Under the pieces are notes generated by a model. It worked only from the letters and a program-made list of their open reading frames with translations. It searched no databases and was not told the origin of the DNA. From Nitrospirota bacterium (GTDB lineage Bacteria > Nitrospirota > UBA9217): 64,000 bases of DNA. Position 1 is the first letter of the stretch. Each line of letters opens with the position of its first letter. The stretch spans positions 1,862 through 65,861 of the forward strand of contig CAWIIS010000008.1 of assembly GCA_963836175.1 (NCBI GenBank). Reading direction: 5' to 3'. The position numbers were made by a program, and so were the translations under genes. Below, one piece after another: positions 12,435 to 60,899 of this stretch.

Positions 12435-12457
12435 CCGGGAGCAAGAGGTATTTGTCC

Positions 12458-18437: not shown

Positions 18438-18467
18438 TGCTCAAAGGAGGGCGCGGGAAGGACGAAC

Positions 18468-19292: not shown

Positions 19293-19335
19293 TGGGGCAG
19301 AGAGCGAGCTCGCAACTTCCATCCAGGTAACTACG

Positions 19336-43812: not shown

Positions 43813-43841
43813 TTGACAAACTATTTTGCTTGGCTTACTAT
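43813..43841 (+). promoter_or_regulatory. Candidate sigma-70 promoter of the nuo operon
   Basis: TTGACA - 17 nt - TACTAT, 56 nt upstream of the nuoA ATG. Confidence 0.5.
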
Positions 43842-44815: not shown

Positions 44816-45286
44816 ATGGATCCCTTACAGATCGCTAAGATGGTAGAAGAAAAATTCGCCGGTCAGGTCCTGGGTACGACGACCTATGCAGGCCAGGTCG
44901 CGATCATGGTCAAAAAAGACATGATCAGGGACATCTGCCTGTACCTCAAAGATGAACCCTCCCTCAAGATGGACCACTTGGCCGACCTGACGGCCGTCGA
45001 TTACTCGACCTATCCCGGCGACACCGGCCCACGTTTCGAAGTCGTCTATAATCTTATCTCTACTGAATTCCGCCACCGCATCCGATTGAAGGTGCGCGTG
45101 CCGGAAGAGGACCCGCGGGTCGACACCGTCTCGTTGATCTGGCAAACAGCCAACTGGCACGAACGCGAGACCTTTGACCTCATGGGGATCAAGTTCGACG
45201 GCCATCCCGACCTTCGCCGGATCCTTTTGCCTGAGGACTGGGAAGGACATCCGCTCCGGAAGGAATATCCGCTGAAAGGCTATTAA
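44816..45286 (+). CDS. nuoC: NADH-quinone oxidoreductase subunit C
   Basis: ANWHERETFDLMGIKFDGHPDLRRILLPEDWEGHPLRKEYP. Confidence 0.9.
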   Translation: MDPLQIAKMVEEKFAGQVLGTTTYAGQVAIMVKKDMIRDICLYLKDEPSLKMDHLADLTAVDYSTYPGDTGPRFEVVYNLISTEFRHRIRLKVRVPEEDPRVDTVSLIWQTANWHERETFDLMGIKFDGHPDLRRILLPEDWEGHPLRKEYPLKGY

Positions 45287-45373: not shown

Positions 45374-46567
45374 ATGTCCGCTTCCTCGACGAAAGAAATA
45401 GTCCAGAAAGAGATTACTCTGAACATGGGGCCGCAGCATCCGGCCACCCACGGCGTGCTGCGCCTGGTGCTCGATCTGCAGGGCGAAACCGTGGTAGGCT
45501 GCGACGCGCGTCCCGGGTATCTTCACCGCGGGATCGAAAAATGGATGGAAAGCAGGACCTACCATCAGATCATCCCCATGACCGACCGGCTTGAGTATAT
45601 CACCTGCATGAACAACAACCTCGGCTACGTGGTTGCCGTCGAGAAACTTGCCAACATCGAGGTCCCGGAGCGGGCGCAGTTCATCAGAACGCTGATGGCA
45701 GAGCTGACGCGGCTTTCGGGCCATCTGGTGTGGCTCGGCACCCATGCCCTTGACATCGGCGCTATGACGGTCTGCATGTATACGCTGCGGGAACGGGAGC
45801 TTATCCTCGATCTTACCGAGATGGTGACAGGCGCGCGCCAGACCGTGAGCTATGTCCGCATCGGCGGCGTGCGCAACGATATACCGCGCGATTTCTTCGA
45901 CAAGTGCCGTGAATTCACCGAGATCTTCCCCAAACGGCTTGAAGAGTACGATACGCTGATCCGGCAAAACCGCATCTGGCTCCAGCGCACCGTGGGCATT
46001 GGCGTGTTCTCGGCCAAAGATGCGGTCAACTACGGTCTGACGGGCGGCACGCTCCGCGGTTCCGGCGTGAACTACGATCTGCGCAAGGTTGAACCCTATG
46101 CAGCCTACGATAAGGTTGATTTCGACGTGCCGCTCGGCAAGAACGGCGATGTCTACGACCGGTACCTCGTGCGCATCAATGAGATGCGCCAGAGCAACCG
46201 GATCATCAAACAGTGCCTCGATATGATGCCGCCCGGACCGGTGGTGACTCCGGACCCGCGGTACGCCATTCCCGAAAAAACGAACGTCATGAAAAGCATG
46301 GAATCGCTGGCCCACCAGTTCGTGCTCATGAGCAAGTGGGTCCCCATGCCCAAGGGCGAGGTCTATGTGGCGACCGAGGCGCCGAAGGGCGAACTCGGCT
46401 TCTATATAATAAGCGACGGCAGCGGCCGGCCCTACCGTATCAAGATCCGCGCCCCCTCGTATGTGCATGTGAGCGCCCTTTCGAAGATGGTGACCGGTCA
46501 TATGGTGGCCGATGTCATCTCATGCATAGGGACCATCGACATTGTGCTGGGTGAGGTTGACCGGTAA
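45374..46567 (+). CDS. nuoD: NADH-quinone oxidoreductase subunit D
   Basis: NMGPQHPATHGVLRLVL, HRGIEK, and C-terminal TIDIVLGEVDR. Confidence 0.92.
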   Translation: MSASSTKEIVQKEITLNMGPQHPATHGVLRLVLDLQGETVVGCDARPGYLHRGIEKWMESRTYHQIIPMTDRLEYITCMNNNLGYVVAVEKLANIEVPERAQFIRTLMAELTRLSGHLVWLGTHALDIGAMTVCMYTLRERELILDLTEMVTGARQTVSYVRIGGVRNDIPRDFFDKCREFTEIFPKRLEEYDTLIRQNRIWLQRTVGIGVFSAKDAVNYGLTGGTLRGSGVNYDLRKVEPYAAYDKVDFDVPLGKNGDVYDRYLVRINEMRQSNRIIKQCLDMMPPGPVVTPDPRYAIPEKTNVMKSMESLAHQFVLMSKWVPMPKGEVYVATEAPKGELGFYIISDGSGRPYRIKIRAPSYVHVSALSKMVTGHMVADVISCIGTIDIVLGEVDR

Positions 46568-46585: not shown

Positions 46586-46942
46586 ATGAAACTGAGAGAG
46601 ATCATCGGCATTCTTCAAGCAGAGATCCTGGCCGGCGAGGACATCATCAACGGGATAGATGTGGACCGGTGCTACAGCGCAGATCTCATGAGCGACGTGC
46701 TTGGCCGCAGCCATGCGAACGGCATACTGATCACCGGGATAACGAACCCCCAGGCAATACGGACGGCTGACATTGCCGATATCAAGGCGGTTTGTGTCGT
46801 GCGCGGAAAACAGCCTGAAGCGGAAGCGGTCGCCCTGGCAAAGCAGAAGGATATGCCTCTTTTCATCACGAAAATGGGGATGTTCGAGGCGTGCGGCATC
46901 CTGTATGCGAACGGGCTGCGGGGAGTGGCCGAGCGGCACTAG
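46586..46942 (+). CDS. DRTGG-domain protein (first copy)
   Basis: 118 aa. DLMSDVL...ILITGITNPQAIRTADIADIKAVCVVRGKQP...AKQKDMPLF fits the DRTGG domain pattern. Starts 18 nt after nuoD. Confidence 0.65.
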   Translation: MKLREIIGILQAEILAGEDIINGIDVDRCYSADLMSDVLGRSHANGILITGITNPQAIRTADIADIKAVCVVRGKQPEAEAVALAKQKDMPLFITKMGMFEACGILYANGLRGVAERH

Positions 46943-46945: not shown

Positions 46946-47896
46946 ATGACACACCAGCGTAAAGAGCAGCCGCCGGATCGAATGACCAAGACCCAGGAAA
47001 TGGTCTACGAGCTTACGGTTGGCGAGGTCATGCCGCCGACAATGGTCACCGTAGCTCCGGAACAGACCATGGCGGAACTCAGGGTTCTTTTGCGTGACAA
47101 CCGCCTGTCCGGCACACCGGTGGTCGAGAACGGGAAGCTTGTGGGGATGATCAGCATCGAAGATCTGATCAACGCCCTCACCGATAACGCGATCAGCGCC
47201 CCCATCCGGGAGAGGATGAAGACCAAGGTTGAATGTCTGTATGCCGATGAACTGCTTGTCCACTGCATAGCAAAGTTTTCCAAATTCGGGTACCGGCGGT
47301 ACCCCGTAATAAACCGGGACAATGAGCTGGTCGGCATCGTCACCAAGGGGAGCATTGTAGAAGGCCTCCTCAAGAAGCTCGAGGTCGAATACGAACAGGC
47401 CGAGTCAAAAGTGGCGGTGACGCGTCAGCGGCCGACGATGAAGAAGTTCTTTGAGGATGTATCTGCTGACGAGATCAGTTTTACTTTCAAGTACCATGTC
47501 GCCGGCCATTCCCTGAAGGACGCAGGCAAGGCTGCCAGCGAACTGAAGAATGCTCTTAAAAAACTGGGCGTCTGCCCGCCGCTCCTCAGAAGGATCGGGG
47601 TCGCCACGTACGAAGCAGAGATAAATCTTGCTTCATACACCAAGGGCGGTGTGATCCGTGCCCAGGTGGAGAAGTGGGGGGTTACGGTGGAGGCAATCGA
47701 CACCGGGCCCGGAATACCCGATGTCGAAAAAGCCTTGCAGCCCGGGTTTTCCACAGCGCCTGAATGGGTGCGGGAATTGGGATTCGGCGCCGGCATGGGG
47801 CTGGTGAACATGAAAAAATGCGCTGATGAAATGAACCTTATATCATCGGTGCCCGAGGGAACTCATCTGACCATGCAGTTTTATTATACGAGTTGA
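46946..47896 (+). CDS. CBS-pair domain fused to an RsbW/SpoIIAB-like GHKL ATPase (putative Ser/Thr protein kinase)
   Basis: Two CBS motifs (VGEVM...LSGTPVVENGKLVGMISIEDL; FGYRRYPVINRDNELVGIVTKGS). C-terminal N-box-like ATYEAEINL and G-boxes DTGPGIPD and GFGAGMGL. Confidence 0.65.
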   Translation: MTHQRKEQPPDRMTKTQEMVYELTVGEVMPPTMVTVAPEQTMAELRVLLRDNRLSGTPVVENGKLVGMISIEDLINALTDNAISAPIRERMKTKVECLYADELLVHCIAKFSKFGYRRYPVINRDNELVGIVTKGSIVEGLLKKLEVEYEQAESKVAVTRQRPTMKKFFEDVSADEISFTFKYHVAGHSLKDAGKAASELKNALKKLGVCPPLLRRIGVATYEAEINLASYTKGGVIRAQVEKWGVTVEAIDTGPGIPDVEKALQPGFSTAPEWVRELGFGAGMGLVNMKKCADEMNLISSVPEGTHLTMQFYYTS

Positions 47897-47906: not shown

Positions 47907-48257
47907 ATGAAACTACGTGACCTGGCAGCGGAGTTCGGCTTGACCGTTAAAACCGGCGCAGGGCATCTTGATAACGAGGTGACCGGCGGGTACGTGAGCG
48001 ACCTCCTGTCGGACGTCCTGGCCCACGCCGAGGACGGGAACCTCTGGGTCACGCTCCATATTCACCATAATATTGTGGCCGTGGCAGCGCATACGGGGCT
48101 GTCGGGCATCGTTCTGATACAGGGCAGGGTCCCGGACCAGGATACGATCGCCAAGGCAGAGCAGGAAGGCATTCCGATCATGGTAAGCGACCTTTCGGCG
48201 TTCGAACTGGTTGGCAGATTGTATAAGGCGGGAATCCGTGGCGCTGAGGCGCTTTAA
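47907..48257 (+). CDS. DRTGG-domain protein (second copy)
   Basis: 116 aa. YVSDLLSDVL...IVLIQGRVPDQDTIAKAEQEGIPIM. Paralogous in layout to 46586-46942. Confidence 0.65.
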   Translation: MKLRDLAAEFGLTVKTGAGHLDNEVTGGYVSDLLSDVLAHAEDGNLWVTLHIHHNIVAVAAHTGLSGIVLIQGRVPDQDTIAKAEQEGIPIMVSDLSAFELVGRLYKAGIRGAEAL

Positions 48258-48984
48258 GGCCGATCTTCATGTGCACACCTGCCTCTCTCCCTGCTCCGGT
48301 CTTGACATGTCACCGCGGGAGGTCGTGAGCGCTGCCATCGAGAAGGGGATCGACCTGATCGGAGTGTGTGACCATAACTCGGCTGAAAACGTCATTGCCG
48401 TTAAAAAGGCCGGTCTTCGCAACGGACTGGCTGTTCTCGGCGGGATGGAAGTCACTTCTTCCGAGGAAGCGCACATCCTGGTGTTCTTTGATGATGACGA
48501 TGAACTCCTGGATTTCCAGGAGTTCATTTACCAACACCTTGCCGGGAAAAATGATGGTCACTCCTTTGGACTGCAGGTGATCGCTGACGACGAGGATGGA
48601 GTAACCGGCTTTTGTGAGCGGCTTCTGATCGGAGCTACATCGCTGCCCGCAGAAGCGATCGTTGCAAAAGCCCGGGCGGCAAAAGGGGAGAGCCTCGTAA
48701 TAGCCGCTCATGTTGACCGGGAATCCTTCAGCATTATCGGACAGCTTGGATTCATCCCTGATACGCTGGTTCTGGATGCGGTGGAGGTATCGGCAAACTC
48801 GAACATTGTCGAGGCCCGAAATCGATTCCCTGATTGCGCAAAATATCCAATGATCACGAGTTCGGATGCTCACAGCCCTGCAGATATGGGGAAGCGGTTT
48901 ACCTCCTTTCTGCTGGAAGAGGGCACGGTGGCTGAGATAAAAAAAGCACTGGCCGGCAGAGACGGCAGGAAGGCTGAGTGCTGA
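48238..48984 (+). CDS. PHP-domain (polymerase/histidinol phosphatase-like) metal-dependent phosphoesterase
   Basis: ADLHVHTCLSPCS, GVCDHNS, GMEVTS..EAHILVFF and SSDAHS metal-ligand motifs. Start uncertain (GTG 48238 or TTG 48211). Overlaps the previous gene. Confidence 0.65.
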   Translation: MALRRFKADLHVHTCLSPCSGLDMSPREVVSAAIEKGIDLIGVCDHNSAENVIAVKKAGLRNGLAVLGGMEVTSSEEAHILVFFDDDDELLDFQEFIYQHLAGKNDGHSFGLQVIADDEDGVTGFCERLLIGATSLPAEAIVAKARAAKGESLVIAAHVDRESFSIIGQLGFIPDTLVLDAVEVSANSNIVEARNRFPDCAKYPMITSSDAHSPADMGKRFTSFLLEEGTVAEIKKALAGRDGRKAEC

Positions 48985-48988: not shown

Positions 48989-49519
48989 GTGGAAGAGATT
49001 TCGCTCCATATTCTCGACATTGCTGAAAACTCGCTGCGGGCAGGCGCAAAAAACGTGGAGATCCTGGTTGTCAGGGACCGGTCGCAGGACCTGCTGAAAA
49101 TAGACGTCCGGGATGACGGAAGAGGGATGGATGCCGAAACGCTGGCACAGGTCCGGAATCCTTTCTTTACAACGAAACAGAAGAAAACCGGGCTCGGCAT
49201 TCCATTGCTGGCGCAGGCCGCGGAGCAGGCAGGCGGCGGCCTGACGATCGACTCCGCGCCGGACAGCGGTACCCGGGTAACGGTGACGTTCCAGTGGAGC
49301 GCCATTGACCGGCCCAAGATGGGCGCCTTGGCGGATACGCTGCTGACGATCATTGCGGGCCATCCTGAGCTGGATATGGTCTACGAAGAATGGGTTGACG
49401 GGGAGGTCTTCCGGCTTGATACCCGGGAGATCAAGAACGAGCTGGACGACGTGCCGATTAACAGCCCGGCGGTATTTGAAGCGCTCAGGGGCATGCTGCA
49501 GGACGGCATGCGGATCTGA
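48989..49519 (+). CDS. Stand-alone GHKL (HATPase_c) ATP-binding protein
   Basis: N-box HILDIAENSLRAGA. G1 DDGRGMD. FFTTK. G2 KTGLGIPL. No HisKA/H-box. GTG start. Confidence 0.6.
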   Translation: MEEISLHILDIAENSLRAGAKNVEILVVRDRSQDLLKIDVRDDGRGMDAETLAQVRNPFFTTKQKKTGLGIPLLAQAAEQAGGGLTIDSAPDSGTRVTVTFQWSAIDRPKMGALADTLLTIIAGHPELDMVYEEWVDGEVFRLDTREIKNELDDVPINSPAVFEALRGMLQDGMRI

Positions 49520-49553: not shown

Positions 49554-50063
49554 ATGATGAGTACAGAAGCTGCAGAACATACTGCCACAAACAATGAGGT
49601 CATCTTGCCCGATATGTATCGGAAGATTGACGTGATCATTGAAAAGTACAAGGACAAGCCCGGTTCGCTGATCCCCGTACTGCAGCAGGCGCAGGAGGTT
49701 TGCGGGTATCTCCCGCATATCGTGCAGCGTTACATTGCAAAAGGCATGAATATGTCGCCGAGCGTGGTTTTCGGTGTGGCCACGTTCTACTCTTACTTTA
49801 CGCTCGTTCCGCGCGGCAAACACGTGATCCGGGTCTGCCTCGGGACCGCCTGCTACGTGAAACGGAGCGAGGAGATCATCGAAAAGATCAAGGCTGAGCT
49901 GGACCTCGAGGTCGGCGAGATCACGCGGGACAAGAAGTATTCCCTTGAGGCTGTGCGGTGCCTCGGCGCATGCGGACTCGCACCGGTTGTGGTCATCGGG
50001 CAGGACACGTACGGCGATGTGGCGGCCACGAAAGTAATGGATATTATAAAGAAATACGAATAA
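49554..50063 (+). CDS. nuoE: NADH dehydrogenase subunit E (NuoE/HydC/HndA-type [2Fe-2S])
   Basis: SLIPVLQQAQEVCGYL, CLGTACYV and CLGACGLAPVV cluster ligands. Confidence 0.88.
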   Translation: MMSTEAAEHTATNNEVILPDMYRKIDVIIEKYKDKPGSLIPVLQQAQEVCGYLPHIVQRYIAKGMNMSPSVVFGVATFYSYFTLVPRGKHVIRVCLGTACYVKRSEEIIEKIKAELDLEVGEITRDKKYSLEAVRCLGACGLAPVVVIGQDTYGDVAATKVMDIIKKYE

Positions 50064-50098
50064 TTCGATTTCGGATCGCGGATTTCGGATTGCGGATT
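50063..50098. repeat. Solo arm of the GGATT-heptad element (copy A3)
   Basis: AATTCGATTTCGGATCGCGGATTTCGGATTGCGGATT lies directly before the SD (AAAGGTG) of the next gene. No inverted partner is present. Confidence 0.6.
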
Positions 50099-50110
50099 AA
50101 AGGTGAAAAA

Positions 50111-50488
50111 ATGGCAAAACTGACGATCGCTGACTTAAAAAAGATCAAGGAAGATTACCATCAAGGGCTTCGCGAGGGCGGATTCAGGGTGAGGATCACG
50201 GTGCACATGGGGACCTGCGGGATCGCTGCCGGCGCCCGGGGCATCATGAATACCATCATGGAAGAGCTGGCCAAGTCCAATCTGAAGGACGTGGCGATCA
50301 CGACCTCGGGATGCGCCGGCTTGTGCAGTCAGGAACCGATGACGACCATCGAGACCACCGGCGAAGCTCCGGTAAAATATACCGCCCTTACGGAAGAGAA
50401 GATGCGCAAGATATTTGCCGAGCATGTCATAGCGGGCCGGCCGGTCAAGGAATACGCCCTTGTTGCCGGGCACGAAACGACCTATTAG
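50111..50488 (+). CDS. Thioredoxin-like [2Fe-2S] ferredoxin (HndB/HydD-like)
   Basis: VHMGTCGIAAGA ... TSGCAGLCSQEP Cys pairs. 125 aa. Not part of the canonical 14-gene nuo set. Confidence 0.75.
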   Translation: MAKLTIADLKKIKEDYHQGLREGGFRVRITVHMGTCGIAAGARGIMNTIMEELAKSNLKDVAITTSGCAGLCSQEPMTTIETTGEAPVKYTALTEEKMRKIFAEHVIAGRPVKEYALVAGHETTY

Positions 50489-50562
50489 ACCGTTAATAAA
50501 ACGCTCAACAGCCAGGAGCGAACACGTAATTAAGTACAAAACTATCTGAAATTACAATTCAT

Positions 50563-52371
50563 GTGCGGGGTAATATCGTGGAAACGACTGCATACCGTTC
50601 GAACATAATGATCTGCGCAGGCACCGGCTGTGTTGCCAACGGATCGCTCAAGGTCAAGGACGCGCTCGAGACCGAGCTCATCAAGCGCAACCTCCAGAAC
50701 GAGGTCAAGATCGTTCTGACCGGGTGCAACGGGTTCTGCGCCAAGGGCCCGGTGATGGTGGTCTACCCCGAGGACATCTTCTATCAGCTGGTGAAGCCCG
50801 AAGATGTGCCGCATCTCGTTGAGGAGCATTTCATCAAGGGCCGGCCGGTCCAGAAATTCCTCTATACGCCGCCGGCGGACAAGAACACGATCCCCGTGAT
50901 GAACGACATCCCGTTCTTCAAGCACCAGGTTCTCCGGGCGCTCAGGAACCGGAGCCTCATCGATGCCGAGAAGATCGAGGAATACATCGCCCGCGACGGT
51001 TACATGGCTGCGGCCAAGGCGCTCACTGAGATGACTCCCGAGCAGATCGTCGTCGAAATGAAGAAGTCCGGCCTGCGCGGCAGGGGCGGCGCTGGCTTTT
51101 TGACAGGTCTCAAATGGGAACTCTGCGCCCGTGTTTCCGGTGATATCAAGTACATTTTGTGCAACGGCGACGAGGGTGACCCGGGCGCGTTCATGGACAG
51201 GAGCGTCATGGAGGCGGACCCTCACTCCGTGCTCGAAGGCATGATCATTGCCGCCAAGGCGATCAACGCCCATTACGGGTACATCTATGTAAGGGCCGAG
51301 TATCCCTTGGCAGTGCAACGGCTCCAGCTTGCCATCGAATCGGCTAAGGAACACGGCCTCCTGGGCAAGGACATCCTCGGCACCGGGTTTGATCTTGATC
51401 TTGAGATCTACCAGGGCGCCGGTGCTTTTGTCTGCGGCGAAGAAACTGCCCTCATGGCCTCCATCGAAGGCAAGCGCGGCATGCCGCGTGCCAAGCCGCC
51501 GTTCCCGGCGGTCAAGGGTTTGTGGCAGCGCCCATCGGTCTTGAACAATGTCGAGACCTTTGCCAACATTCCGCCGATCATTCTGCACGGAGCGGACTGG
51601 TACGCGAGCCTGGGTACCGAGAAGAGCAAAGGCACCAAGGTGTTCGCGCTCTCCGGGGCATTGAACAATATCGGGCTTGTCGAAGTGCCCATGGGCACGC
51701 CGCTCAAGACCATCATTTACGATATTGGCGGCGGTATCAAGAACAACCGCAAATTCAAGGCAGTGCAGATGGGTGGTCCGTCGGGAGGCTGCATACCTGG
51801 TTCGCTCATCGACACGCCCGTGGACTTCGAGAATATCAACAAAACCGGTGCGATCATGGGCTCGGGCGGCATGGTGGTGATGGACGAGACCACCTGCATG
51901 CCGGCCATGGCCAAGTTCTTCCTTGAGTTCACTGAGGACGAGTCCTGTGGAAAGTGCGTTCCCTGCAGGATCGGGAACAAAACGCTGCTCACTATTCTGC
52001 AGCGCATTACGAACGGCGAGGGACGCGAAGGCGACATCGAGCTGCTGCTCGCTCTTTCCCAGCAGATCAAGGACACATCGCTCTGCGGCTTGGGCCAGAC
52101 CTCACCCAACCCGGTGCTCACCACGATCAGGTATTTCCGCGACGAGTATGAAGCGCATATCAAGGAGCATCGCTGCCCGGCGAGGGTCTGTACGCCCCTC
52201 GTCAAGTTCGTGGTGGACAAGGACAAGTGCAAGAAGTGCGGCCAGTGTTTCAAAGCCTGCCCGACCGGCGCGCTCAAATGGGAAAAAGGCCAGGTTGCAT
52301 ACATTGACCCTGAAAAGTGCACCAAGTGCAAGTCCTGCATCAAGGCGTGCCGTTTCTGGTCGATCGATTAG
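50563..52371 (+). CDS. nuoF: NADH dehydrogenase subunit F, extended HydB/HndC-type (N-terminal Trx-like [2Fe-2S], FMN/NADH site, N3, C-terminal 2x[4Fe-4S])
   Basis: CAGTGC...GCNGFCAKGP; GLRGRGGAGF; CNGDEGDPGAF; ESCGKCVPCR; CKKCGQCFKACP and CTKCKSCIKAC. 602 aa versus about 430-450 for classical NuoF. Confidence 0.88.
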   Translation: MRGNIVETTAYRSNIMICAGTGCVANGSLKVKDALETELIKRNLQNEVKIVLTGCNGFCAKGPVMVVYPEDIFYQLVKPEDVPHLVEEHFIKGRPVQKFLYTPPADKNTIPVMNDIPFFKHQVLRALRNRSLIDAEKIEEYIARDGYMAAAKALTEMTPEQIVVEMKKSGLRGRGGAGFLTGLKWELCARVSGDIKYILCNGDEGDPGAFMDRSVMEADPHSVLEGMIIAAKAINAHYGYIYVRAEYPLAVQRLQLAIESAKEHGLLGKDILGTGFDLDLEIYQGAGAFVCGEETALMASIEGKRGMPRAKPPFPAVKGLWQRPSVLNNVETFANIPPIILHGADWYASLGTEKSKGTKVFALSGALNNIGLVEVPMGTPLKTIIYDIGGGIKNNRKFKAVQMGGPSGGCIPGSLIDTPVDFENINKTGAIMGSGGMVVMDETTCMPAMAKFFLEFTEDESCGKCVPCRIGNKTLLTILQRITNGEGREGDIELLLALSQQIKDTSLCGLGQTSPNPVLTTIRYFRDEYEAHIKEHRCPARVCTPLVKFVVDKDKCKKCGQCFKACPTGALKWEKGQVAYIDPEKCTKCKSCIKACRFWSID

Positions 52372-52428
52372 TAGCGGACAAATTTACCGCGGAAAACAGC
52401 GGTTGCATACAAAGGTAGAAGAAAACCT

Positions 52429-54603
52429 ATGCAGAAAATAACGGTAACGGTTGACGGAAAAAAAGTAGAAGTGCCCACGGGATCGACGATCCTGGAGGCT
52501 GCTAATGCCGCCGGGTCGCGGGTACCCACCCTGTGCCATGACAACAAGCTCCATCCCTTCGGCGCCTGCCGGATCTGCATCGTGGAGGTGGAGGGGACGC
52601 CTCGCCGGTTCACGCCGTCGTGCACGACCCCGGCTGGCGACAATATGGTGGTCCGTACCACGTCGCCGGAGCTCATCACTGCGCGCAAGATGGTGCTCGA
52701 ACTGTTATTGATCAAACATCCCCTCGACTGCCCGGTCTGCGACAAGGCCGGAGCGTGCCAGCTCCAGGACCTCACGCATGAGTACGGGCTCGGCCCGAGT
52801 CGGTTCGATGCTGAGAAGGGCTACCTCCCACCCGATCTGGAGAGTGCGATCATCGAACGCAATATCAGTCGCTGCATCCTCTGCGGCAAGTGCGTCAGGA
52901 TCTGCGACGAGCAGAACGGCGTTGGAGAGTGGGCCTTTACCCGCCGCGGCACCAAGGCGCGGATCAGCACCGACTTTGACCGGCCGCTGGACTGCGAGTT
53001 CTGCGGCGAATGCGTCGAGATCTGCCCGGTGGGGGCGCTCACGACGCGCCAGTTCAAGTACAAGGCCCGCTCCTGGAACCTGGAAGAGACCAAATCGGTC
53101 TGCAACTACTGCGGCTGCGGCTGCACCACGACGCTGGAGACGCGCGATAGCAGGATCATGCGGGTGAGCCCGGGCAGGGACAATTATCTCTGTGCCAAGG
53201 GTCGCTTCGGGTGGGACGCGGTCCGTCACAAAGACCGGCTCACTACGCCGAAGATGCGCGTGGCTAATGAGCTCGTTGACTGCACTTGGGATGAGGCGCT
53301 GGCAGTGGTGGCCACAAACCTCAACGTGATCAAGGGCAAGAGCGGGGCTGACAGCATCGGCGGCCTCGGGTCCGTACGAACCACAAATGAGGACCACTAT
53401 GTGTTCCAGAAGTTCATGCGTACGATCGTGGGCACGAACAATGTGGATCTGCTGGCGAGGCTCAAGGCGCCGAAAGGGCTCGATACGGCGTTCTTCAGCG
53501 GCGAACTCGGCCAGATGGGCGCTAACGATGTTATCCTGGTGCTCGACAAGGAAGTCGGCGATATCAACCCGCTCACCGGCATTGAGATCGTCCGCGCTGT
53601 CAATCGAAAAGGCCGCACGCTGGTCCTGGTGAACGACGGATTTAATAAATTCAACAAGCTTGCTTCGGTCGTGATCCCCCAAAGCACCGAGGCGGCGTTG
53701 GGCGACCTGGTCAAGGCATTGTCGGCCGGACAGGGAAGCAGCGAGGCACAGCATGCTGCAACGGTCCTGAAAAGTGCCGGAAGCGTGGCGGTCATCGTAC
53801 CGTCGAAGCTTACGGACGCGGATTTCAGCCGGATCAAGGAGCTTGCCGGTCTACTGAAGAATGTTACCTATTATCCCATCGTACGGCGCAGCAACTTCCA
53901 GGGTGCGCTCGACATGGGAGTGCTCCCGGATTATTATCCCGGATACCGGAAGGTCGGTGCTGATACGACGGCCTCGCTTGCACGTTCCTGGAACGCAGTC
54001 CTGCCCGGGACGACCGGCAAAAATGCTGTGGAGATGGTCGACGCGATGGCCTCCGGCAAACTGCATGCCCTCTATATCATGGGCGACGATCCGATCGGAA
54101 GCGACCCGGGCCTCAAACCGGTGCTTGCGAAGCTCGATTTCCTCGTGGTGCAGGACATTTTTATGACCGAGACGGCGCAGATGGCCGATGTGGTGCTGCC
54201 GGCGTCAAGTTATGTGGAAAAAAGCGGAACGTTCACGAACCTTGAACGGCGCCTCCAGCAGATCAACCGCGGTGAAGAGCCCTACGGGGAATCGCGCCCT
54301 GACTGGGAGATCCTCGCGGAGGTTGCGAAGAAGATGGGCGGGTCCCTGACCTATGGCTCCGTGCGGGACATTATTGCGGAGATCCGGTCTATGGTGCCGT
54401 TGTATGCAGGCCTCACGGTTGGCTCATGCTGGCCGCGTGAAAGCTCGCCGCTTGCCGGAACGGACGTTGACCTGTCGCTGGCATCCAATAACATCATGAA
54501 AAAAGAAGTGATCACGGCTGAGAAACAGCTGTTCTCGTCCGGAATGACGATCACGCGGTCACATGAGATCGGGACCATCAAACATATTAAGATCGAAGTG
54601 TAG
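52429..54603 (+). CDS. nuoG: NADH dehydrogenase subunit G (75-kDa, molybdopterin-oxidoreductase-like)
   Basis: [2Fe-2S] CHDNKLHPFGACRICIVEV. HPLDCPVCDKAGACQLQD. CILCGKCVRIC. CEFCGECVEICPVGA. CNYCGCGC. Confidence 0.85.
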   Translation: MQKITVTVDGKKVEVPTGSTILEAANAAGSRVPTLCHDNKLHPFGACRICIVEVEGTPRRFTPSCTTPAGDNMVVRTTSPELITARKMVLELLLIKHPLDCPVCDKAGACQLQDLTHEYGLGPSRFDAEKGYLPPDLESAIIERNISRCILCGKCVRICDEQNGVGEWAFTRRGTKARISTDFDRPLDCEFCGECVEICPVGALTTRQFKYKARSWNLEETKSVCNYCGCGCTTTLETRDSRIMRVSPGRDNYLCAKGRFGWDAVRHKDRLTTPKMRVANELVDCTWDEALAVVATNLNVIKGKSGADSIGGLGSVRTTNEDHYVFQKFMRTIVGTNNVDLLARLKAPKGLDTAFFSGELGQMGANDVILVLDKEVGDINPLTGIEIVRAVNRKGRTLVLVNDGFNKFNKLASVVIPQSTEAALGDLVKALSAGQGSSEAQHAATVLKSAGSVAVIVPSKLTDADFSRIKELAGLLKNVTYYPIVRRSNFQGALDMGVLPDYYPGYRKVGADTTASLARSWNAVLPGTTGKNAVEMVDAMASGKLHALYIMGDDPIGSDPGLKPVLAKLDFLVVQDIFMTETAQMADVVLPASSYVEKSGTFTNLERRLQQINRGEEPYGESRPDWEILAEVAKKMGGSLTYGSVRDIIAEIRSMVPLYAGLTVGSCWPRESSPLAGTDVDLSLASNNIMKKEVITAEKQLFSSGMTITRSHEIGTIKHIKIEV

Positions 54604-54612: not shown

Positions 54613-55701
54613 ATGCCTGATCTGAACCTGGTGCTCAACATCCTCTATACGCTTGTCATTCCCATCGCGGTGCTGCTGGCCTTCATCCTGGCCAATGCCA
54701 TGTATCTGCAGCTTATGGAACGCAAGGTGCTTGCGCACATGCAGGGAAGGCTTGGCCCTATGCGGACCGGCTGGCACGGGATCCTGCAGCCGATCGCGGA
54801 TGCGGTCAAGTTCATCATGAAAGAGGACATCATTCCGGCCAAGGCAGACAAGTGGGTTTTCAGCCTCGCACCGATCCTGATGCTCGCCATGGCATTCGGC
54901 GCTTTTGTGGTCATTCCCTTTGGACCGCCGACGAGCTTTTTCGGACTTTTGTCCCATGAGGTCCCGCTCTGGGTTTCGAATCTGAATGTGGGGGTTCTCT
55001 TTATCGTCGCGTTCGCCAGTATCGGCACCTACGGCGTCATCATGGCCGGATGGGCGTCGAACAATAAATATTCCCTCATGGGAGGGTTCCGGTCAGCGGC
55101 CCAGATGATAAGCTACGAGATTCCCATGGCTTTTTCGATACTCACCGTGGTGCTCCTGGCAGGGTCGCTGAACCTGAACGATATTGTGAATGCCCAAAGC
55201 AAGCAATGGTTCATTATCGCGCTGCCCGTGGGCCCGGTGGCATTTTTCCTCTATCTGGTTTCGGCAATTGCGGAAACGAACCGTGTTCCTTTTGACCTGC
55301 CCGAGGCCGAGAGCGAACTGGTGGCAGGGTACTTCACCGAGTACAGCGGCATTCGCTTCGGCCTCTTCTTCATGGCGGAGTACATGAACATGATGGTGGC
55401 ATCGCTTCTGGCAAGCATCATGTTCCTCGGCGGCTGGCTGCCGGTGCAGATACTTCCCAATACCGCCTTTGGCCACCTCGCCTCAATAACGTTTCTCAAT
55501 AAGATATTTGCGGCGCTGCCGCCGACGCTCTGGCTGCTGGCAAAGCTTTACTTCTTCATCTTCTTCTACATGTGGATCCGGGCAACGCTTCCCCGGTACC
55601 GTTATGACCAGCTCATGAAGATCTCCTGGAAGATCTTTCTTCCCTTGTCGCTCGGCACGCTGCTCGTGGCGGCAGGTATGAAGCAGCTGGGCTGGCTGTA
55701 G
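54613..55701 (+). CDS. nuoH: NADH-quinone oxidoreductase subunit H
   Basis: MERKVLAHMQGRLGP and AETNRVPFDLPEAESELVAGY. Confidence 0.92.
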   Translation: MPDLNLVLNILYTLVIPIAVLLAFILANAMYLQLMERKVLAHMQGRLGPMRTGWHGILQPIADAVKFIMKEDIIPAKADKWVFSLAPILMLAMAFGAFVVIPFGPPTSFFGLLSHEVPLWVSNLNVGVLFIVAFASIGTYGVIMAGWASNNKYSLMGGFRSAAQMISYEIPMAFSILTVVLLAGSLNLNDIVNAQSKQWFIIALPVGPVAFFLYLVSAIAETNRVPFDLPEAESELVAGYFTEYSGIRFGLFFMAEYMNMMVASLLASIMFLGGWLPVQILPNTAFGHLASITFLNKIFAALPPTLWLLAKLYFFIFFYMWIRATLPRYRYDQLMKISWKIFLPLSLGTLLVAAGMKQLGWL

Positions 55702-55753: not shown

Positions 55754-56242
55754 ATGAATAAACTTAAAAAGCTGCTTAAAACGATTTTCATGATCGAGAT
55801 CGCGCAGGGCATGGCCCTGACGCTCAAGACCATGCTCACCCGTCAAAAACATATGATACCCTATGCGAAGACGCGGCAATACCCGGCCTTCAAGCGCAAA
55901 CCGATCGCCGGGTCGCGCGGGCTCCATGCCATGCGACGCGATGAAAAGGGCGCGGCAGCATGCATCGGTTGCGGCCTCTGCGAGGCGGTCTGTCCTTCCC
56001 ATGCCATTACGGTGGTAACGTCCGAGGGGCCGGACCATGAAAAAGTGGTGAACTCCTATGAGCTTGACCTGCTCCGGTGCGTGTTCTGCGGTTTTTGCAT
56101 CGATGCATGCCCTGTTTCGGCGATCCTGATGACCCCCGAATTCGAGCTTGCCTGCTACGACAGGAAAGATGCGTTCTACACCAGGGACCGTCTTGTCGAT
56201 GTGGGCGACCACTACCTGGGCGGAAAGGCGGTAAAGAAGTAA
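55754..56242 (+). CDS. nuoI: NADH-quinone oxidoreductase subunit I
   Basis: CIGCGLCEAVCP and CVFCGFCIDACP. Confidence 0.9.
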   Translation: MNKLKKLLKTIFMIEIAQGMALTLKTMLTRQKHMIPYAKTRQYPAFKRKPIAGSRGLHAMRRDEKGAAACIGCGLCEAVCPSHAITVVTSEGPDHEKVVNSYELDLLRCVFCGFCIDACPVSAILMTPEFELACYDRKDAFYTRDRLVDVGDHYLGGKAVKK

Positions 56243-56751
56243 TGGTGCATAAACTTATCTTCCTGTATTTTGCCGCAGTGATCCTTGTATCGGCGGTCCT
56301 CACGGTAACCCGGAAGAACCCCATCCACAGTGTGATGTACATGCTCCTGCTCTTCTTCCACATTGCGGGCGTTTTCGTGCTGCTGAACGCGGAGTTTCTG
56401 GCTGCAGTGCAGCTTATCGTGTATGCCGGGGCCATCCTGATCCTGTACCTCTTCGTGGCGATGCTTCTGAGCGTGGACCGCGAGGTAATCGCGCTGCGGG
56501 CGAACCGTTTCTGGCCCTGGCTCACCGGATTTGGCGTGCTGATTGCGGGAGAGATCGGATTGCTCGTTGCAGAGGGTGCGTTTCCGGCGGATGCTGGCCA
56601 GCCGATGCGTGCGGCCTCGAGTACCGGGATTGGCGCCCTCGGCAGTGAGCTCTATACCAACTACCTGGTGCCGTTCGAGGTTGCGTCCATCATTCTGCTG
56701 GTCGGACTCGTGGGCGCTGTGATGCTGGCGAAGAAGAAAACGAACGAATAA
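56242..56751 (+). CDS. nuoJ: NADH-quinone oxidoreductase subunit J
   Basis: ATG overlaps the nuoI stop (TAATG). [40 protein letters not shown]. Confidence 0.85.
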
Positions 56752-56852: not shown

Positions 56853-57155
56853 ATGATCCCTTTGTCCTGGTATATCCTGCTGAGCGCCGGGTTGTTCACC
56901 ATTGGTGTTGTCGGCGTGCTGAGCCGCCGCAATGTGTTCATCGTGCTGATGTCGCTCGAGCTCATGCTGAACGCGGCGAACATCAACCTCGTGGCGTTCT
57001 CGCACTATCTGCAGTCGCTCACCGGTCAGATTTTCGCGATCTTTGTGATCACCGTAGCCGCTGCCGAGGCGGCGGTGGCGCTGGCGATCATCATCCTGCT
57101 GGCCCGCAACCGCGGGAGCATCCATGTGGATGATTTTAACATCATGAAGGGATAA
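56853..57155 (+). CDS. nuoK: NADH-quinone oxidoreductase subunit K
   Basis: [24 protein letters not shown] and [12 protein letters not shown]. Confidence 0.9.
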
Positions 57156-57300: not shown

Positions 57301-59232
57301 ATGCTTAAATATGCACTGATACCGCTGCTGCCCTTCGCCGGCTTCCTGATCGCCGGCCTGTTCGGGAAATTCCTGAAGGAGAGGGCCGCCTACTTCGCCA
57401 TTGCCGGGGTGGTCGGCGCGTTCCTGCTTTCCGTGAGCGCTTTCTTTGACGTGCTCGGCGGGACGATCGTCAATGAGAACCTCTATTCCTGGATCTCCAT
57501 CGGGACGCTCTCGGTGAACGTGGGGCTGCAGATCGACCAATTGACCACGGTCATGCTCCTGGTCGTGACCACGCTCAGTTCCCTCATTCATATCTACTCC
57601 GTGGGATATATGCACGGCGACAAGGGTTTTGCCCGGTTCTTCTCCTATCTGGCGCTCTTCACCTTCTTCATGCTGGTGCTGGTCATGGCCAACAGTTTTT
57701 TGCTCATGTTCGTGGGCTGGGAAGGGGTCGGCCTCTGCTCCTACCTGCTCATCGGCTTCTGGTATGAAAAGAAATCGGCTTCGGATGCCGGCATCAAGGC
57801 CTTCGTGGTGAACCGCGTGGGCGACTTCGGTTTCCTGCTCGGCATGCTTCTGATTTTTGTCACCTTCGGCACCCTGGACTTTGCCGGGGTCTTCAAGGCT
57901 GTTGCCGATCCGGCCGCCAATTTCAACTATATGTTCTTCGGGTCAGAGATCAGTGTTATTACCCTGATCGCGCTGCTTCTGTTCGTGGGAGCGATGGGCA
58001 AGTCCGCCCAGCTTCCGCTTTATGTCTGGCTCCCGGATGCCATGGAGGGCCCCACGCCGGTCAGCGCCCTGATCCATGCGGCGACCATGGTCACAGCAGG
58101 CGTTTTCATGGTGGCGCGCTGTGCGCCGATCTTCTCGCTCTCTCCGTCCGCGATGAATGTCGTTGCCATCGTCGGCGGGCTGACCGCGGTCTTTGCCGCG
58201 ACCATCGGCCTGGTGCAGAATGATATCAAGCGCGTCATCGCCTATTCAACGATCAGTCAGCTCGGCTATATGTTCCTGGGACTCGGGGTCGGGGCTTTCT
58301 CGGCCGGCATCTTTCACCTCACAACTCATGCGTTCTTCAAGGGACTCCTGTTCCTTGCTTCGGGCAGCGTGATCCACGCCCTGTCGGGCGAGCAGGACAT
58401 GCGCAAGATGGGCGCGCTCAAATCCAAAATCAAGGTCACCCATGCGGTGTTCATCATCGGATCGCTTGCCCTGGCCGGGATCTTTCCCTTTGCAGGCTTC
58501 TTCAGCAAGGATGAGATCCTCTGGAGCGCTTACAACGCATCGACGCTGGGCCGCGGGCTGTGGGTCCTCGGCGTGGCAGCCGCTTTCATGACCGCGTTCT
58601 ACTCATTCCGGCTGATCTACCTGACCTTTTATGGGAAATCCCGCATGGACCACGAGGTCGAGCACCATGTGCATGAGTCTCCGAAGGTCATGACGATCCC
58701 GCTCATGATCCTCGCATTCTTCTCCGTGGTCATCGGCTGGATCGGGATGCCCGGGGCGATCATTCCCCATGCGAACCTGTTCGGCGATTTTCTCGCGCCG
58801 CTCTTCCCGCACGCTGAGCATGCAGCTGCAGCGGAAAGCCACTGGTTTGAGCTTGGCTTGATGGTGTTTTCCGTCATCGTTGCGCTTGCCGGGATCAGGG
58901 CCGCCTATGCATGGTATGTTAAAAACCCTTCCCGGCCCGCTTACTGGGCAGAGAAGTATAAGGGCGCCTATACATTGCTCTTGAATAAATACAAGGTCGA
59001 CGAAGTCTACAACTATATTTTTGTCGATGGCCTGGTCCACAAACTGGCGAAGGTCCTGTATACGATCGGCGATGTGAAGATCATCGACGGAGCGGTGAAC
59101 GGCCTTGCGCAGGCGATCAGTTCAATGAGCGAACGCGGCCGGAAGCTCCAGACCGGCTATGTGCAGCAGTATGCTTTTACCATGGGCCTCGGCTTCGTGC
59201 TCCTCGTGGGGTTGTACTACGTTCTGCGCTAG
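57301..59232 (+). CDS. nuoL: NADH-quinone oxidoreductase subunit L
   Basis: WEGVGLCSYLLIGFW and GKSAQLPLYVWLPDAMEGPTPVSALIHAATMV. Confidence 0.92.
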   Translation: MLKYALIPLLPFAGFLIAGLFGKFLKERAAYFAIAGVVGAFLLSVSAFFDVLGGTIVNENLYSWISIGTLSVNVGLQIDQLTTVMLLVVTTLSSLIHIYSVGYMHGDKGFARFFSYLALFTFFMLVLVMANSFLLMFVGWEGVGLCSYLLIGFWYEKKSASDAGIKAFVVNRVGDFGFLLGMLLIFVTFGTLDFAGVFKAVADPAANFNYMFFGSEISVITLIALLLFVGAMGKSAQLPLYVWLPDAMEGPTPVSALIHAATMVTAGVFMVARCAPIFSLSPSAMNVVAIVGGLTAVFAATIGLVQNDIKRVIAYSTISQLGYMFLGLGVGAFSAGIFHLTTHAFFKGLLFLASGSVIHALSGEQDMRKMGALKSKIKVTHAVFIIGSLALAGIFPFAGFFSKDEILWSAYNASTLGRGLWVLGVAAAFMTAFYSFRLIYLTFYGKSRMDHEVEHHVHESPKVMTIPLMILAFFSVVIGWIGMPGAIIPHANLFGDFLAPLFPHAEHAAAAESHWFELGLMVFSVIVALAGIRAAYAWYVKNPSRPAYWAEKYKGAYTLLLNKYKVDEVYNYIFVDGLVHKLAKVLYTIGDVKIIDGAVNGLAQAISSMSERGRKLQTGYVQQYAFTMGLGFVLLVGLYYVLR

Positions 59233-60855: not shown

Positions 60856-60899
60856 ATCGTCAGGAGTTTTATCCCAGAGGAATCTGTGAGGAGATATCG

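What the first reader, a model, noticed from the sequence alone, without database searches (positions are those of the whole stretch)
49554..54603. The NADH-input (N) module of this complex I has bifurcating-hydrogenase (HydBC/HndABC) architecture rather than classical NuoEF
What the sequence shows:
- An extra 125-aa thioredoxin-like [2Fe-2S] ferredoxin gene (50111-50488) sits between nuoE and nuoF.
- NuoF is 602 aa. It has an additional N-terminal Trx-like Cys motif (CAGTGC...GCNGFC) and two C-terminal CxxCxxCxxxCP ferredoxin motifs.

Established knowledge: these additions are characteristic of HydB/HndC-type subunits of NAD(P)H-linked, often flavin-based electron-bifurcating, hydrogenases and formate dehydrogenases. 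They are not typical of E. coli- or Thermus-type NuoF.

No H-cluster hydrogenase subunit is present. A NuoG-like 724-aa protein follows, and then nuoH-N.

Inference: the block from the first DRTGG gene to nuoF/G may have been transplanted as a unit from a hydrogenase-type operon into an 11-subunit (nuoABCDHIJKLMN) core. That would create a chimeric complex I, possibly with a ferredoxin-interacting or bifurcating input.
Basis: partly seen in the sequence, partly recalled or inferred. Interest (0 to 1): 0.62.

Follow-up and report, generated by a model that had tools for sequence, protein, structure and literature searches.

The report
Complex I with bifurcating-type NADH/ferredoxin head
An uncultured Nitrospirota bacterium has a respiratory complex I whose normal NADH-input subunits are replaced by hydrogenase/formate-dehydrogenase-style ones: a design predicted in 2022 ("Nuo-Bfu"), seen here in a separately recruited version that relatives swap with, or carry alongside, the classical input.

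Summary
Between nuoD and nuoG the operon carries a five-gene signalling cassette, a HydC-like NuoE, a 125-aa HydD-like protein and a 587-602-aa HydB-like NuoF. This NuoF keeps every cluster ligand of bifurcating BfuB subunits.

The idea is not new. Schut et al. 2022 (PMC9304861) predicted such "Nuo-Bfu" complexes, including in Nitrospirae, as NADH + reduced ferredoxin:menaquinone oxidoreductases. None has been characterised.

- Only the cassette, E, HydD and F are foreign. NuoG and the core subunits are native to the lineage.
- The nearest relatives of E and F are soluble formate-dehydrogenase-type Bfu operons of other Nitrospirota. These carry the same cassette in the same order.
- Geobacter-, Planctomycete- and other Nitrospirota-type Nuo-Bfu subunits branch elsewhere.
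- Sister operons carry classical cNMP_binding-nuoE-nuoF at the same position. The head type changed at least three times.
- Two relatives encode both heads in tandem in one operon.
- The "extra ferredoxin" has only three Cys plus one His, so it may bind zinc rather than [2Fe-2S].

The reaction itself remains inferred. Verdict: a new variant of a known, still uncharacterised kind; moderate interest.

The parts
43813..43841 (+). sigma-70-like promoter candidate upstream of nuoA
   Evidence: TTGACA-17-TACTAT, 10 of 12 matches, the best site in the region. The total number of sites equals chance, so this is weak evidence.
43897..44271 (+). nuoA
   Evidence: ORF and translation. 84-99% identical in sister operons.
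44241..44741 (+). nuoB (N2 cluster subunit)
   Evidence: ORF. Part of the native core clade, 100/100.
44816..45286 (+). nuoC
   Evidence: ORF; synteny.
45374..46567 (+). nuoD
   Evidence: ORF; core tree.
46586..46942 (+). cassette gene 1: DRTGG-domain protein (118 aa)
   Evidence: Pfam DRTGG at 20.5 bits, below the cut-off. Conserved in position next to BfuC/B in nuo and in soluble operons.
46946..47896 (+). cassette gene 2: CBS-CBS-HATPase_c_2 (anti-sigma/Ser-kinase-like) protein (316 aa)
   Evidence: Pfam CBS 4.6e-24, HATPase_c_2 6.3e-9. In the Desulfobacterota version this position holds a separate HATPase_c_2 gene plus a Fe_hyd_lg_C protein.
47907..48257 (+). cassette gene 3: second DRTGG-domain protein (116 aa)
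   Evidence: Pfam, weak; synteny.
48211..48984 (+). cassette gene 4: PHP phosphoesterase-domain protein (up to 257 aa)
   Evidence: Pfam PHP 3.8e-9 and PHP_C.
48989..49519 (+). cassette gene 5: stand-alone HATPase_c (hisK-like) protein (176 aa)
   Evidence: Pfam HATPase_c 4e-16. A hisK gene is known in the A. mobile hydABCSL operon and is not part of that enzyme.
49554..50063 (+). nuoE of BfuC/HydC type, C1 [2Fe-2S]
   Evidence: Pfam 1e-49. Best solved matches are HydC chains 7t2r_C and 8a6t_C. The tree places it with cassette-linked BfuC, apart from classical NuoE. Four Cys: CLGTAC...CLGAC.
50111..50488 (+). HydD-like thioredoxin-fold protein (125 aa); metal site of 3 Cys + 1 His, cofactor uncertain
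   Evidence: Pfam 24.6 bits against a cut-off of 24.8. The motifs VHMGTCGIAAGAR and SGC.G(L/M)CS are conserved. The best solved match is the N-terminal domain of NfnB 9n5u_B, which I take to be the T. sibiricus enzyme whose equivalent site holds Zn.
50563..52371 (+). nuoF of BfuB/HydB type: N-terminal [2Fe-2S] domain, FMN/NADH site, B1 [4Fe-4S], B2 His/Cys site, C-terminal 2x[4Fe-4S] ferredoxin-docking domain
   Evidence: Ligands: C18, C23, C55, C59; C462, C465, C468, C508; C445, H532, C538, C543; C556-C566; C586-C596. DPGAFMDR signature present. Trees.
52429..54603 (+). nuoG (724 aa), native to the lineage; five Fe-S sites; truncated pterin-less molybdopterin fold
   Evidence: Pfam: no Molydop_binding and no H-cluster domain. 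Tree 100/100 with the NuoG of operons that carry classical NuoEF. Cys pattern identical across operon types.
54613..55701 (+). nuoH
55754..56242 (+). nuoI
56242..56751 (+). nuoJ
56853..57155 (+). nuoK
57301..59232 (+). nuoL
59316..60852 (+). nuoM, with a +1 frameshift near 60755 (probably an assembly error)
   Evidence: tblastn with the L008 NuoM: residues 1-480 in frame 1, residues 481-512 in frame 2.
60882..62354 (+). nuoN

Best explanation
The window encodes a Nuo-Bfu-type complex I. The membrane arm, the quinone module (NuoA-D, H-N) and NuoG are the lineage's own. The classical NuoEF flavoprotein is replaced by a BfuC/BfuB pair (HydC/HydB-like). That pair arrived together with a HydD-like gene and a five-gene DRTGG/CBS-HATPase/PHP/HATPase cassette. 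The source resembled the soluble formate-dehydrogenase-type Bfu operons of other Nitrospirota.

Inferred mechanism:
- NADH gives a hydride to the FMN of NuoF.
- Reduced ferredoxin docks at the C-terminal 2x[4Fe-4S] domain of NuoF and feeds electrons through B4, B3 and the NuoE cluster C1.
- The two streams merge at the FMN/B1/C1 'flavobicluster'.
- Electrons then run through NuoG, NuoI and NuoB (cluster N2) to menaquinone, driving proton pumping.
- The same machine could run backwards, using proton-motive force and quinol to make NADH plus reduced ferredoxin for the Wood-Ljungdahl pathway.
- The cassette is probably a control system for the BfuBC head.

Shown here: architecture, ligands, conservation and evolutionary origin. 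Inferred: the reaction, its direction, and the roles of the cassette and of HydD.
For: - Domain architecture.
- Full-length matches to solved bifurcating HydB and HydC chains; classical NuoF matches only the core.
- All B1-B5 and C1 ligands and the DPGAFMDR signature are conserved; classical NuoF has EPGTFKDR and lacks both extensions.
- Schut et al. 2022 predict the Nuo-Bfu reaction. Xiao et al. [quoted passage not shown]
- The operon is tight: gaps of -47 to 145 bp, with no above-chance terminator sites.
- The same arrangement occurs in about 40 species-level Nitrospirota genomes with NuoF 84-99% identical, so it is under strong constraint.
- E and F are sister to soluble, cassette-bearing Fdh-Bfu subunits of Nitrospirota (100/91*), while NuoG and the core are native.
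- The genome has ferredoxin-linked metabolism: acetyl-CoA synthase, CooS, Fdh-Bfu, Codh-Bfu and a dsr-like gene.
Against: - No biochemical, structural or expression data exist for any Nuo-Bfu.
- Both electron donors lie well below menaquinone in potential, so coupling them is not thermodynamically required.
- HydD and hisK homologues are not part of the A. mobile enzyme, so their role here is unknown.
- The same NuoG works with classical NuoEF in sister operons, so the Bfu head could act as a plain NADH dehydrogenase.
Confidence: 0.6

Rival explanations
1. Ordinary NADH:menaquinone complex I. The HydB-type extensions are inherited baggage and carry no ferredoxin-linked electron flow; the head simply replaces NuoEF.
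For: NuoG and its clusters are the same as in sister operons with classical NuoEF. The two heads are interchanged or co-encoded. There is no energetic need for confurcation onto menaquinone.
Against: Every ligand of the extra clusters is kept across about 40 species and in four separate recruitments of BfuB into nuo operons. A sub-clade (L026, P0087, P0100) has lost the FMN/NADH loop yet keeps all Fe-S ligands. That pattern suggests the ferredoxin path is the part being conserved.
Confidence: 0.2
2. The physiological direction is reverse. Quinol oxidation driven by proton-motive force is bifurcated onto NAD+ and ferredoxin, supplying low-potential electrons for CO2 fixation by the Wood-Ljungdahl pathway.
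For: Bfu enzymes are reversible. The genome carries acetyl-CoA synthase, CODH and Fdh-Bfu clusters that need or produce reduced ferredoxin. A second, classical nuo operon is available for forward NADH oxidation.
Against: Sequence gives no evidence on direction. Class UBA9217-type Nitrospirota are described mainly as sulfate reducers that oxidise C1 compounds and H2, which favours forward flow into the quinone pool.
Confidence: 0.15
3. The inserted block is not part of complex I. BfuC/B and the cassette form, or regulate, a separate soluble enzyme, and are merely co-transcribed with nuo genes.
For: The same block serves soluble Fdh-type and HydA-type enzymes elsewhere. Stand-alone classical nuoEFG modules exist in many genomes with this operon.
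Against: No alternative BfuA partner lies in the operon. The block sits exactly where nuoEF belong, immediately before nuoG. The same placement arose in Desulfobacterota, Geobacter-type, Planctomycete-type and another Nitrospirota family. This window's own genome shows no stand-alone nuoEFG.
Confidence: 0.05

Closest known systems
Nuo-Bfu, the predicted bifurcating-type complex I (Schut et al. 2022, Front Microbiol 13:946711; BfuB clades 38 and 39, e.g. Geobacter sulfurreducens, Planctomycetes, Nitrospirae)
   Same: A 14-subunit nuo operon whose NuoEF position is filled by BfuC and BfuB, with FMN, an N-terminal thioredoxin-like domain and a C-terminal 2x[4Fe-4S] domain. The predicted reaction is NADH + reduced ferredoxin to menaquinone, coupled to proton pumping.
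   Different: - The BfuB and BfuC here branch apart from the Geobacteraceae (L079), Planctomycetota (L074) and Nitrospirota family f10 (L099, L100) representatives, and sit with soluble Fdh-Bfu subunits.
- The operon also holds a five-gene cassette and a HydD-like gene, which those three lack.
- The B5 site has all four Cys, whereas those three lack one or two.
- NuoG is a short 724-aa native form, against 815-880 aa.
- I could not check whether this lineage was in the authors' data set.
Acetomicrobium mobile NiFe-HydABCSL (PDB 7T2R) and Acetobacterium woodii FeFe-HydABC (7Q4V), both bifurcating hydrogenases
   Same: NuoF aligns end to end with HydB (854 and 807 bits) and NuoE with HydC. All cluster ligands are conserved. 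hisK- and hydD-like genes accompany the operon.
   Different: No hydrogenase catalytic subunit is present. The partner is NuoG of a membrane complex. Position 483 is Thr where both HydB chains have Cys. Thr at this position goes with zinc in other BfuB subunits.
Soluble formate-dehydrogenase-type Bfu operons of other Nitrospirota families (loci L089, L091, L095, L098)
   Same: Same order: DRTGG, HATPase_c_2, DRTGG, PHP, HATPase, BfuC, HydD, BfuB. BfuB is 69-72% identical and is the sister clade (100/91*).
   Different: - Their BfuA is about 820 aa with a full molybdopterin fold plus the Molydop_binding domain, and no nuo genes flank it.
- Their BfuC is fused to a receiver domain.
- They have a plain HATPase_c_2 where the window has a CBS fusion.
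Classical bacterial complex I N-module (E. coli, Thermus NuoEFG/Nqo1-3)
   Same: NuoG, the core subunits and the FMN/N3 part of NuoF are homologous.
   Different: Classical NuoF is 420-450 aa, has EPGTFKDR, and lacks both extra domains. The genome has such an operon elsewhere, at C8:258-274 kb.

Membership tests
Nuo-Bfu (Schut et al. 2022) | BfuABC-type genes sit in the middle of a complete nuoA-D / nuoH-N operon | tested here: met
   Gene order from ORFs, Pfam and tblastn.
Nuo-Bfu (Schut et al. 2022) | BfuB carries Complex1_51K, SLBB, NADH_4Fe-4S and a 4Fe-4S ferredoxin domain | tested here: met
   Pfam.
Nuo-Bfu (Schut et al. 2022) | BfuB belongs to clade 38 or 39 | tested here: inconclusive
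   It does not group with the Geobacteraceae, Planctomycetota or Nitrospirota-f10 nuo-linked BfuB. The authors' own tree and sequence list were not available.
Bfu family (bifurcating BfuBC core) | Ligands of B1, the B2 site, B3, B4 and B5 in BfuB, and of C1 in BfuC | tested here: met
   Alignment with A. mobile and A. woodii HydB. NuoE has the CLGTAC...CLGAC cysteines.
Bfu family (bifurcating BfuBC core) | Signature residues near FMN/NAD(H): A202 and M204 in A. mobile numbering | tested here: met
   DPGAFMDR here against EPGTFKDR in classical NuoF. The third signature residue, F182, could not be mapped on my numbering.
Bfu family (bifurcating BfuBC core) | Coupled use of NAD(H), ferredoxin and a third substrate | not testable with these tools
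   Needs enzyme assays.
Bifurcating [FeFe]/[NiFe] hydrogenase HydABC(SL) / Hnd | An H-cluster domain or NiFe small and large subunits in the operon | tested here: not met
   No Fe_hyd_lg_C in the operon or the genome. The NiFe loci lie elsewhere.
Fdh-Bfu (bifurcating formate dehydrogenase) | BfuA with a complete molybdopterin fold including the Molydop_binding domain | tested here: not met
   NuoG has Molybdopterin but no PF01568, and is 724 aa against about 820 aa.
Classical NuoEF | NuoF of about 420-450 aa without the N-terminal thioredoxin-like and C-terminal ferredoxin domains; groups with canonical NuoF | tested here: not met
Thioredoxin-like [2Fe-2S] ferredoxin (for the 125-aa gene) | Four cysteine ligands; score above the family threshold | tested here: not met
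   Three Cys plus one His; 24.6 bits against a cut-off of 24.8.

The most novel reading that the evidence does not exclude
Complex I in this Nitrospirota family has an exchangeable input head. One NuoG/Q-module/membrane scaffold accepts either a classical NADH-only NuoEF pair, which comes with a cNMP-binding protein, or a ferredoxin-capable BfuCB pair, which comes with a kinase/phosphatase-like cassette. Some species encode both heads in a single operon. A cell could then switch or mix electron inputs by regulated assembly.
Probability: 0.25. Interest if true: 0.75.

Novelty: new variant of a known kind. Interest (0 to 1): 0.45.

Why it matters
Complex I is usually treated as a fixed NADH:quinone machine. 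A head that also takes reduced ferredoxin would link the low-potential ferredoxin pool of anaerobes (CO, formate and acetyl-CoA metabolism) directly to a proton pump and the quinone pool. That changes energy-yield estimates for subsurface sulfate reducers and autotrophs.

This Nitrospirota family holds near-identical operons with a Bfu head, a classical head or both. It is therefore a natural experiment for testing what the Bfu head adds and how N-modules dock on NuoG. It also ties an uncharacterised signalling cassette to the BfuBC core.

Tried and rejected
GC3 is 0.72 in the block and 0.76 in the core genes, so there is no foreign signal.
- **Cassette remnants in classical operons:** I searched the roughly 510-bp nuoD-nuoE 'spacer' of classical-head operons. 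There are none; the spacer is an intact 159-aa cNMP_binding gene.
- **Context of P0097 (76% NuoF):** uninformative. The gene sits at a contig end among unrelated genes.
- **Rooting the NuoG tree:** E. coli NuoG failed my coverage filter, so the tree was rooted on the Geobacter and Planctomycete rows.
- **Signature residue F182 of Schut et al.:** it did not map on my transcription of the 7T2R chain. Only A202 and M204 were used.
- **Rejected readings:**
  - A hydrogenase: no catalytic subunit.
  - A formate dehydrogenase: NuoG lacks the pterin-binding cap.
  - Co-transfer of NuoG.
  - An 11-subunit recipient.
  - Recent horizontal arrival.
- **Not attempted:** a multimer structure prediction of E-HydD-F-G, because the tool folds single chains only. 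NuoF is already about 65% identical to a solved chain.
- **Unresolved:** the direction of the head switches.
Full report
**1. What is there**

The + strand from 43.9 to 62.4 kb is one tight operon. Its gene order is:
- nuoA, nuoB, nuoC, nuoD
- DRTGG (118 aa)
- CBS-CBS-HATPase_c_2 (316 aa)
- DRTGG (116 aa)
- PHP (up to 257 aa)
- HATPase_c (176 aa)
- nuoE (169 aa)
- a 125-aa thioredoxin-fold gene
- nuoF (602 aa from the GTG start; gene callers use 587 aa)
- nuoG (724 aa)
- nuoH to nuoN

Intergenic gaps run from -47 to 145 bp. A promoter-like site lies just before nuoA. Terminator-like sites inside the operon are no more frequent than chance.

**2.

- Pfam finds in NuoF an N-terminal thioredoxin-like [2Fe-2S] segment, the 51-kDa FMN domain, SLBB, the N3 [4Fe-4S] region and two C-terminal Fer4 motifs.
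- Against solved structures, NuoF matches bifurcating HydB chains end to end: A. mobile NiFe-HydB 7t2r_B at 854 bits and A. woodii HydB 7q4v_B at 807 bits.
- Thermus Nqo1 and E. coli NuoF match only residues 138-538, at 385-392 bits.
- NuoE matches HydC chains best.
- NuoG matches FdsA and mycobacterial NuoG. It has no H-cluster domain and no Molydop_binding cap.

An alignment shows every ligand in place:

| Site | Residues in window NuoF |
|---|---|
| B5 | C18, C23, C55, C59 |
| B1 | C462, C465, C468, C508 |
| B2 (His/Cys site) | C445, H532, C538, C543 |
| B3 / B4 | C556-C566 and C586-C596 |

Position 483 is Thr where both HydB chains have Cys. Xiao et al. 2025 associate Thr at this position with zinc rather than a cluster in T. 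kivui and T. maritima HydB and in NfnB. The Bfu signature DPGAFMDR is present, whereas classical NuoF has EPGTFKDR.

**3.

The 125-aa 'ferredoxin' is below the Pfam threshold (24.6 bits against 24.8). Across all orthologues it has only three Cys plus an invariant His, in the motifs VHMGTCGIAAGAR and SGC.G(L/M)CS.

Its best solved match is the N-terminal domain of NfnB chain 9n5u_B. I take this to be the T. sibiricus enzyme described by Xiao et al. 2025, in which that domain holds zinc, not [2Fe-2S]. The protein corresponds to HydD, which is not part of the A. mobile holoenzyme.

The second C-terminal motif of NuoF ends CR rather than CP.

**4. It is a known kind**

Schut et al. 2022 (PMC9304861) defined 'Nuo-Bfu'. 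These are 14-subunit complex I operons whose NuoEFG is of BfuABC type. They reported 51 sequences in two BfuB clades:
- clade 38: Deferribacteres and Proteobacteria, for example Geobacter;
- clade 39: Planctomycetes and Nitrospirae.

They predicted oxidation of NADH and reduced ferredoxin together, with menaquinone as acceptor and proton pumping. A full-text search found no later paper that uses the term and no biochemical characterisation. An earlier agent working on the cassette (e1-3588106) named the same closest relative.

**5. Who carries it**

The window is from an uncultured Nitrospirota genome. A search with NuoG returned 78 loci.
- About 40 Nitrospirota species-level genomes have the same gene order. 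Their NuoF is 84-99% identical.
- In the window's family, roughly 40 of 63 sampled genomes carry this NuoF.
- Some Desulfobacterota MAGs have the same layout (L062, L063, L066, L088). Their NuoF is 71-73% identical but their NuoG only 39-41%. Where the window has the CBS fusion, L062 and L088 encode a HydS-like Fe_hyd_lg_C protein; in L088 a separate HATPase_c_2 gene precedes it.

**6.

*NuoF.* Bfu-type and classical NuoF are split by a long, fully supported branch. Within the Bfu side:
- The window clade (100/100) is sister (100/91*) to BfuB of soluble operons in other Nitrospirota families.
- Next (100/98*) comes the Desulfobacterota nuo-linked clade.
- Geobacteraceae (L079), Planctomycetota (L074) and Nitrospirota family f10 (L099, L100) nuo-linked BfuB branch elsewhere. 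The f10 operons are cassette-less 14-gene operons, and their NuoF is 55-56% identical.

*NuoE.* The tree gives the same picture.

*Soluble relatives.* These operons read DRTGG, HATPase_c_2, DRTGG, PHP, HATPase, (REC-)BfuC, HydD, BfuB. They end with an 820-aa BfuA that has a full molybdopterin fold plus Molydop_binding, which makes them formate-dehydrogenase type.

*NuoG.* By contrast, NuoG forms one 100/100 clade with the NuoG of Nitrospirota operons that have classical NuoEF. Its cluster cysteines are identical across those operon types.

*Core.* The concatenated NuoB, D, H and I tree also puts all these operons in one 100/100 clade.

So E, HydD, F and the cassette are the imported unit. NuoG and the core are native. 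GC3 gives no sign of recent arrival.

**7. Head swapping**

Ten loci from Nitrospirota MAGs differ between nuoD and nuoG or just upstream of nuoG (L040-L045, L049, L050, L058, L068; L042 and L045 are short contigs without nuoA-D). In eight, the nuoA-D and H-N genes are 66-90% identical to the window's. Seven of them, together with the short L045, hold a 159-aa cNMP_binding gene followed by classical nuoE and nuoF. L058 has nuoE and nuoF without the cNMP_binding gene.
- On the core tree these operons are nested among the Bfu-head operons.
- AU tests reject monophyly of either type (p = 2e-4 and 3e-6).
- At least three changes of state are needed.

A stand-alone module, cNMP_binding-nuoE-nuoF-nuoG, also exists. 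In the family-wide scan:
- all 11 genomes with a classical NuoF of this stand-alone grade (68-72% identical to the L040 NuoF) also have the Bfu-head NuoF; in two of them (G123, G230) that NuoF turned out to lie inside the dual operon described next;
- the 10 genomes with a classical NuoF 78-100% identical to the in-operon L040 NuoF have no Bfu-head NuoF of the window's type.

Two species of one genus (L103, L104) encode both heads in tandem, all ORFs intact: nuoABCD, cNMP_binding, classical nuoE and nuoF, cassette, BfuC, HydD, BfuB, nuoG.... These dual operons lie near the base of the core tree, next to L058 (95/96*).

Two scenarios fit these data and I could not decide between them:
- an ancestral dual operon followed by differential loss;
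- repeated recombination with the stand-alone module.

**8. Physiological frame**

The genome is 72% complete and has many frameshifts. It also holds:
- a second, classical nuo operon at C8:258-274 kb;
- an Fdh-Bfu next to acetyl-CoA synthase, corrinoid protein and formyl-THF ligase genes;
- a Codh-Bfu next to CooS and a dsr-like gene;
- three NiFe hydrogenase loci and no FeFe hydrogenase.

This fits the description of basal Nitrospirota classes as C1- and H2-using sulfate reducers. Such cells produce and consume reduced ferredoxin, so a ferredoxin-accepting or ferredoxin-producing complex I is plausible.

**9. Mechanism**

Shown here: the head has all the parts of a BfuBC core.

Inferred, from Schut 2022 and Xiao 2025:
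- NADH reduces FMN.
- The flavobicluster (FMN, B1, C1) merges or splits the electron streams.
- NuoG passes electrons to the quinone module.

Rivals are a plain NADH dehydrogenase, reverse operation, and a block unconnected to complex I. A sub-clade whose NuoF lacks six residues of the FMN/NADH loop yet keeps all Fe-S ligands hints that the ferredoxin path is what selection keeps (L026, P0087, P0100).

**10. Verdict**

- The concept was published in 2022.
- New here: a separate recruitment from Fdh-type Bfu operons together with the cassette and HydD, a native NuoG, and head exchange including dual-head operons.
- The function remains untested.

Noticed in passing
L103 (G123:C40) 6081-16950 and L104 (G230:C25) 5465-16244, minus strand: Two species of one genus in the window's family have a nuo operon with both input heads in tandem, all ORFs intact: nuoABCD, cNMP_binding, classical nuoE-nuoF, DRTGG/CBS-HATPase/DRTGG/PHP/HATPase, BfuC, HydD, BfuB, nuoG-....
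   Followed up: partly
L026 (nuoF), P0087, P0100: A sub-clade of the same operon type has a NuoF that lacks six residues of the FMN/NADH loop (ICNVK------FMDRN against ILCNGDEGDPGAFMDRS) and has an altered GSGG motif. It keeps all Fe-S ligands. This may be a ferredoxin-only head. It is seen in three independent assemblies.
   Followed up: partly
window 50111-50488 and orthologues: The HydD-like proteins share the motifs VHMGTCGIAAGAR and SGC.G(L/M)CS, giving three Cys plus one His. The His lies where BfuB has its first Cys. The metal could be zinc or a 3Cys/1His cluster.
   Followed up: partly
L040 7435-7911 and seven other classical-head operons; L052-L054, L057, L060, L072, L105, L106: A 159-aa cNMP_binding protein always precedes classical nuoE-nuoF, both inside operons and in stand-alone cNMP-nuoEFG modules (about 51% identity between the two settings). 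Stand-alone modules were found only in genomes that also have the Bfu-head operon.
   Followed up: partly
L105 (G111:C9) 114-19901: A stand-alone cNMP-nuoE-nuoF-nuoG module sits directly between the nuoM-nuoN end of another nuo cluster and the start of a Bfu-head operon.
   Followed up: no
L088 6208-7407; L062 4042-5355: In Desulfobacterota nuo operons of this type, the cassette includes a HydS-like protein (Fe_hyd_lg_C plus FeS domains). This is a putative sensory hydrogenase-like gene inside a complex I operon.
   Followed up: no
L095 7549-8409, L089 11353-12213: In the soluble Nitrospirota Fdh-Bfu operons, BfuC is fused to an N-terminal response-regulator receiver domain.
   Followed up: no
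L092 (G069:C1), minus strand 5561-10514: A genome of the window's family has a 1026-aa BfuB fused to a GltD-like NAD(P)H/FAD domain, next to a 598-aa HydA [FeFe] hydrogenase, with the same cassette genes around it.
   Followed up: no
L097 (G146:C10) 563-12000: In another Nitrospirota family, a soluble BfuC-BfuB-BfuA cluster lies immediately upstream of a classical nuoA-G operon.
   Followed up: no
L079, L074, L099 (nuoF N-terminus): The Geobacteraceae, Planctomycetota and Nitrospirota-f10 Nuo-Bfu NuoF lack one or two of the first two B5-site cysteines (C.GTGG or G.GTGG), unlike the window's CAGTGC.
   Followed up: no
window 60755-60757; genome C8:258000-274339, C5:124000-132100: nuoM has a +1 frameshift 32 codons before its end. 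The second nuo operon, the Fdh-Bfu BfuB and BfuA, and the formyl-THF ligase gene are broken into several frames. This looks like indel errors of a long-read assembly, and it may explain the 72% completeness estimate.
   Followed up: partly
genome C5:124000-136000 and C1:103000-116000: The genome has a Wood-Ljungdahl gene cluster (acetyl-CoA synthase, corrinoid protein, Fdh-Bfu, Crp-like gene, formyl-THF ligase). It also has a Codh-Bfu cluster next to CooS and a dsr-like gene.
   Followed up: no
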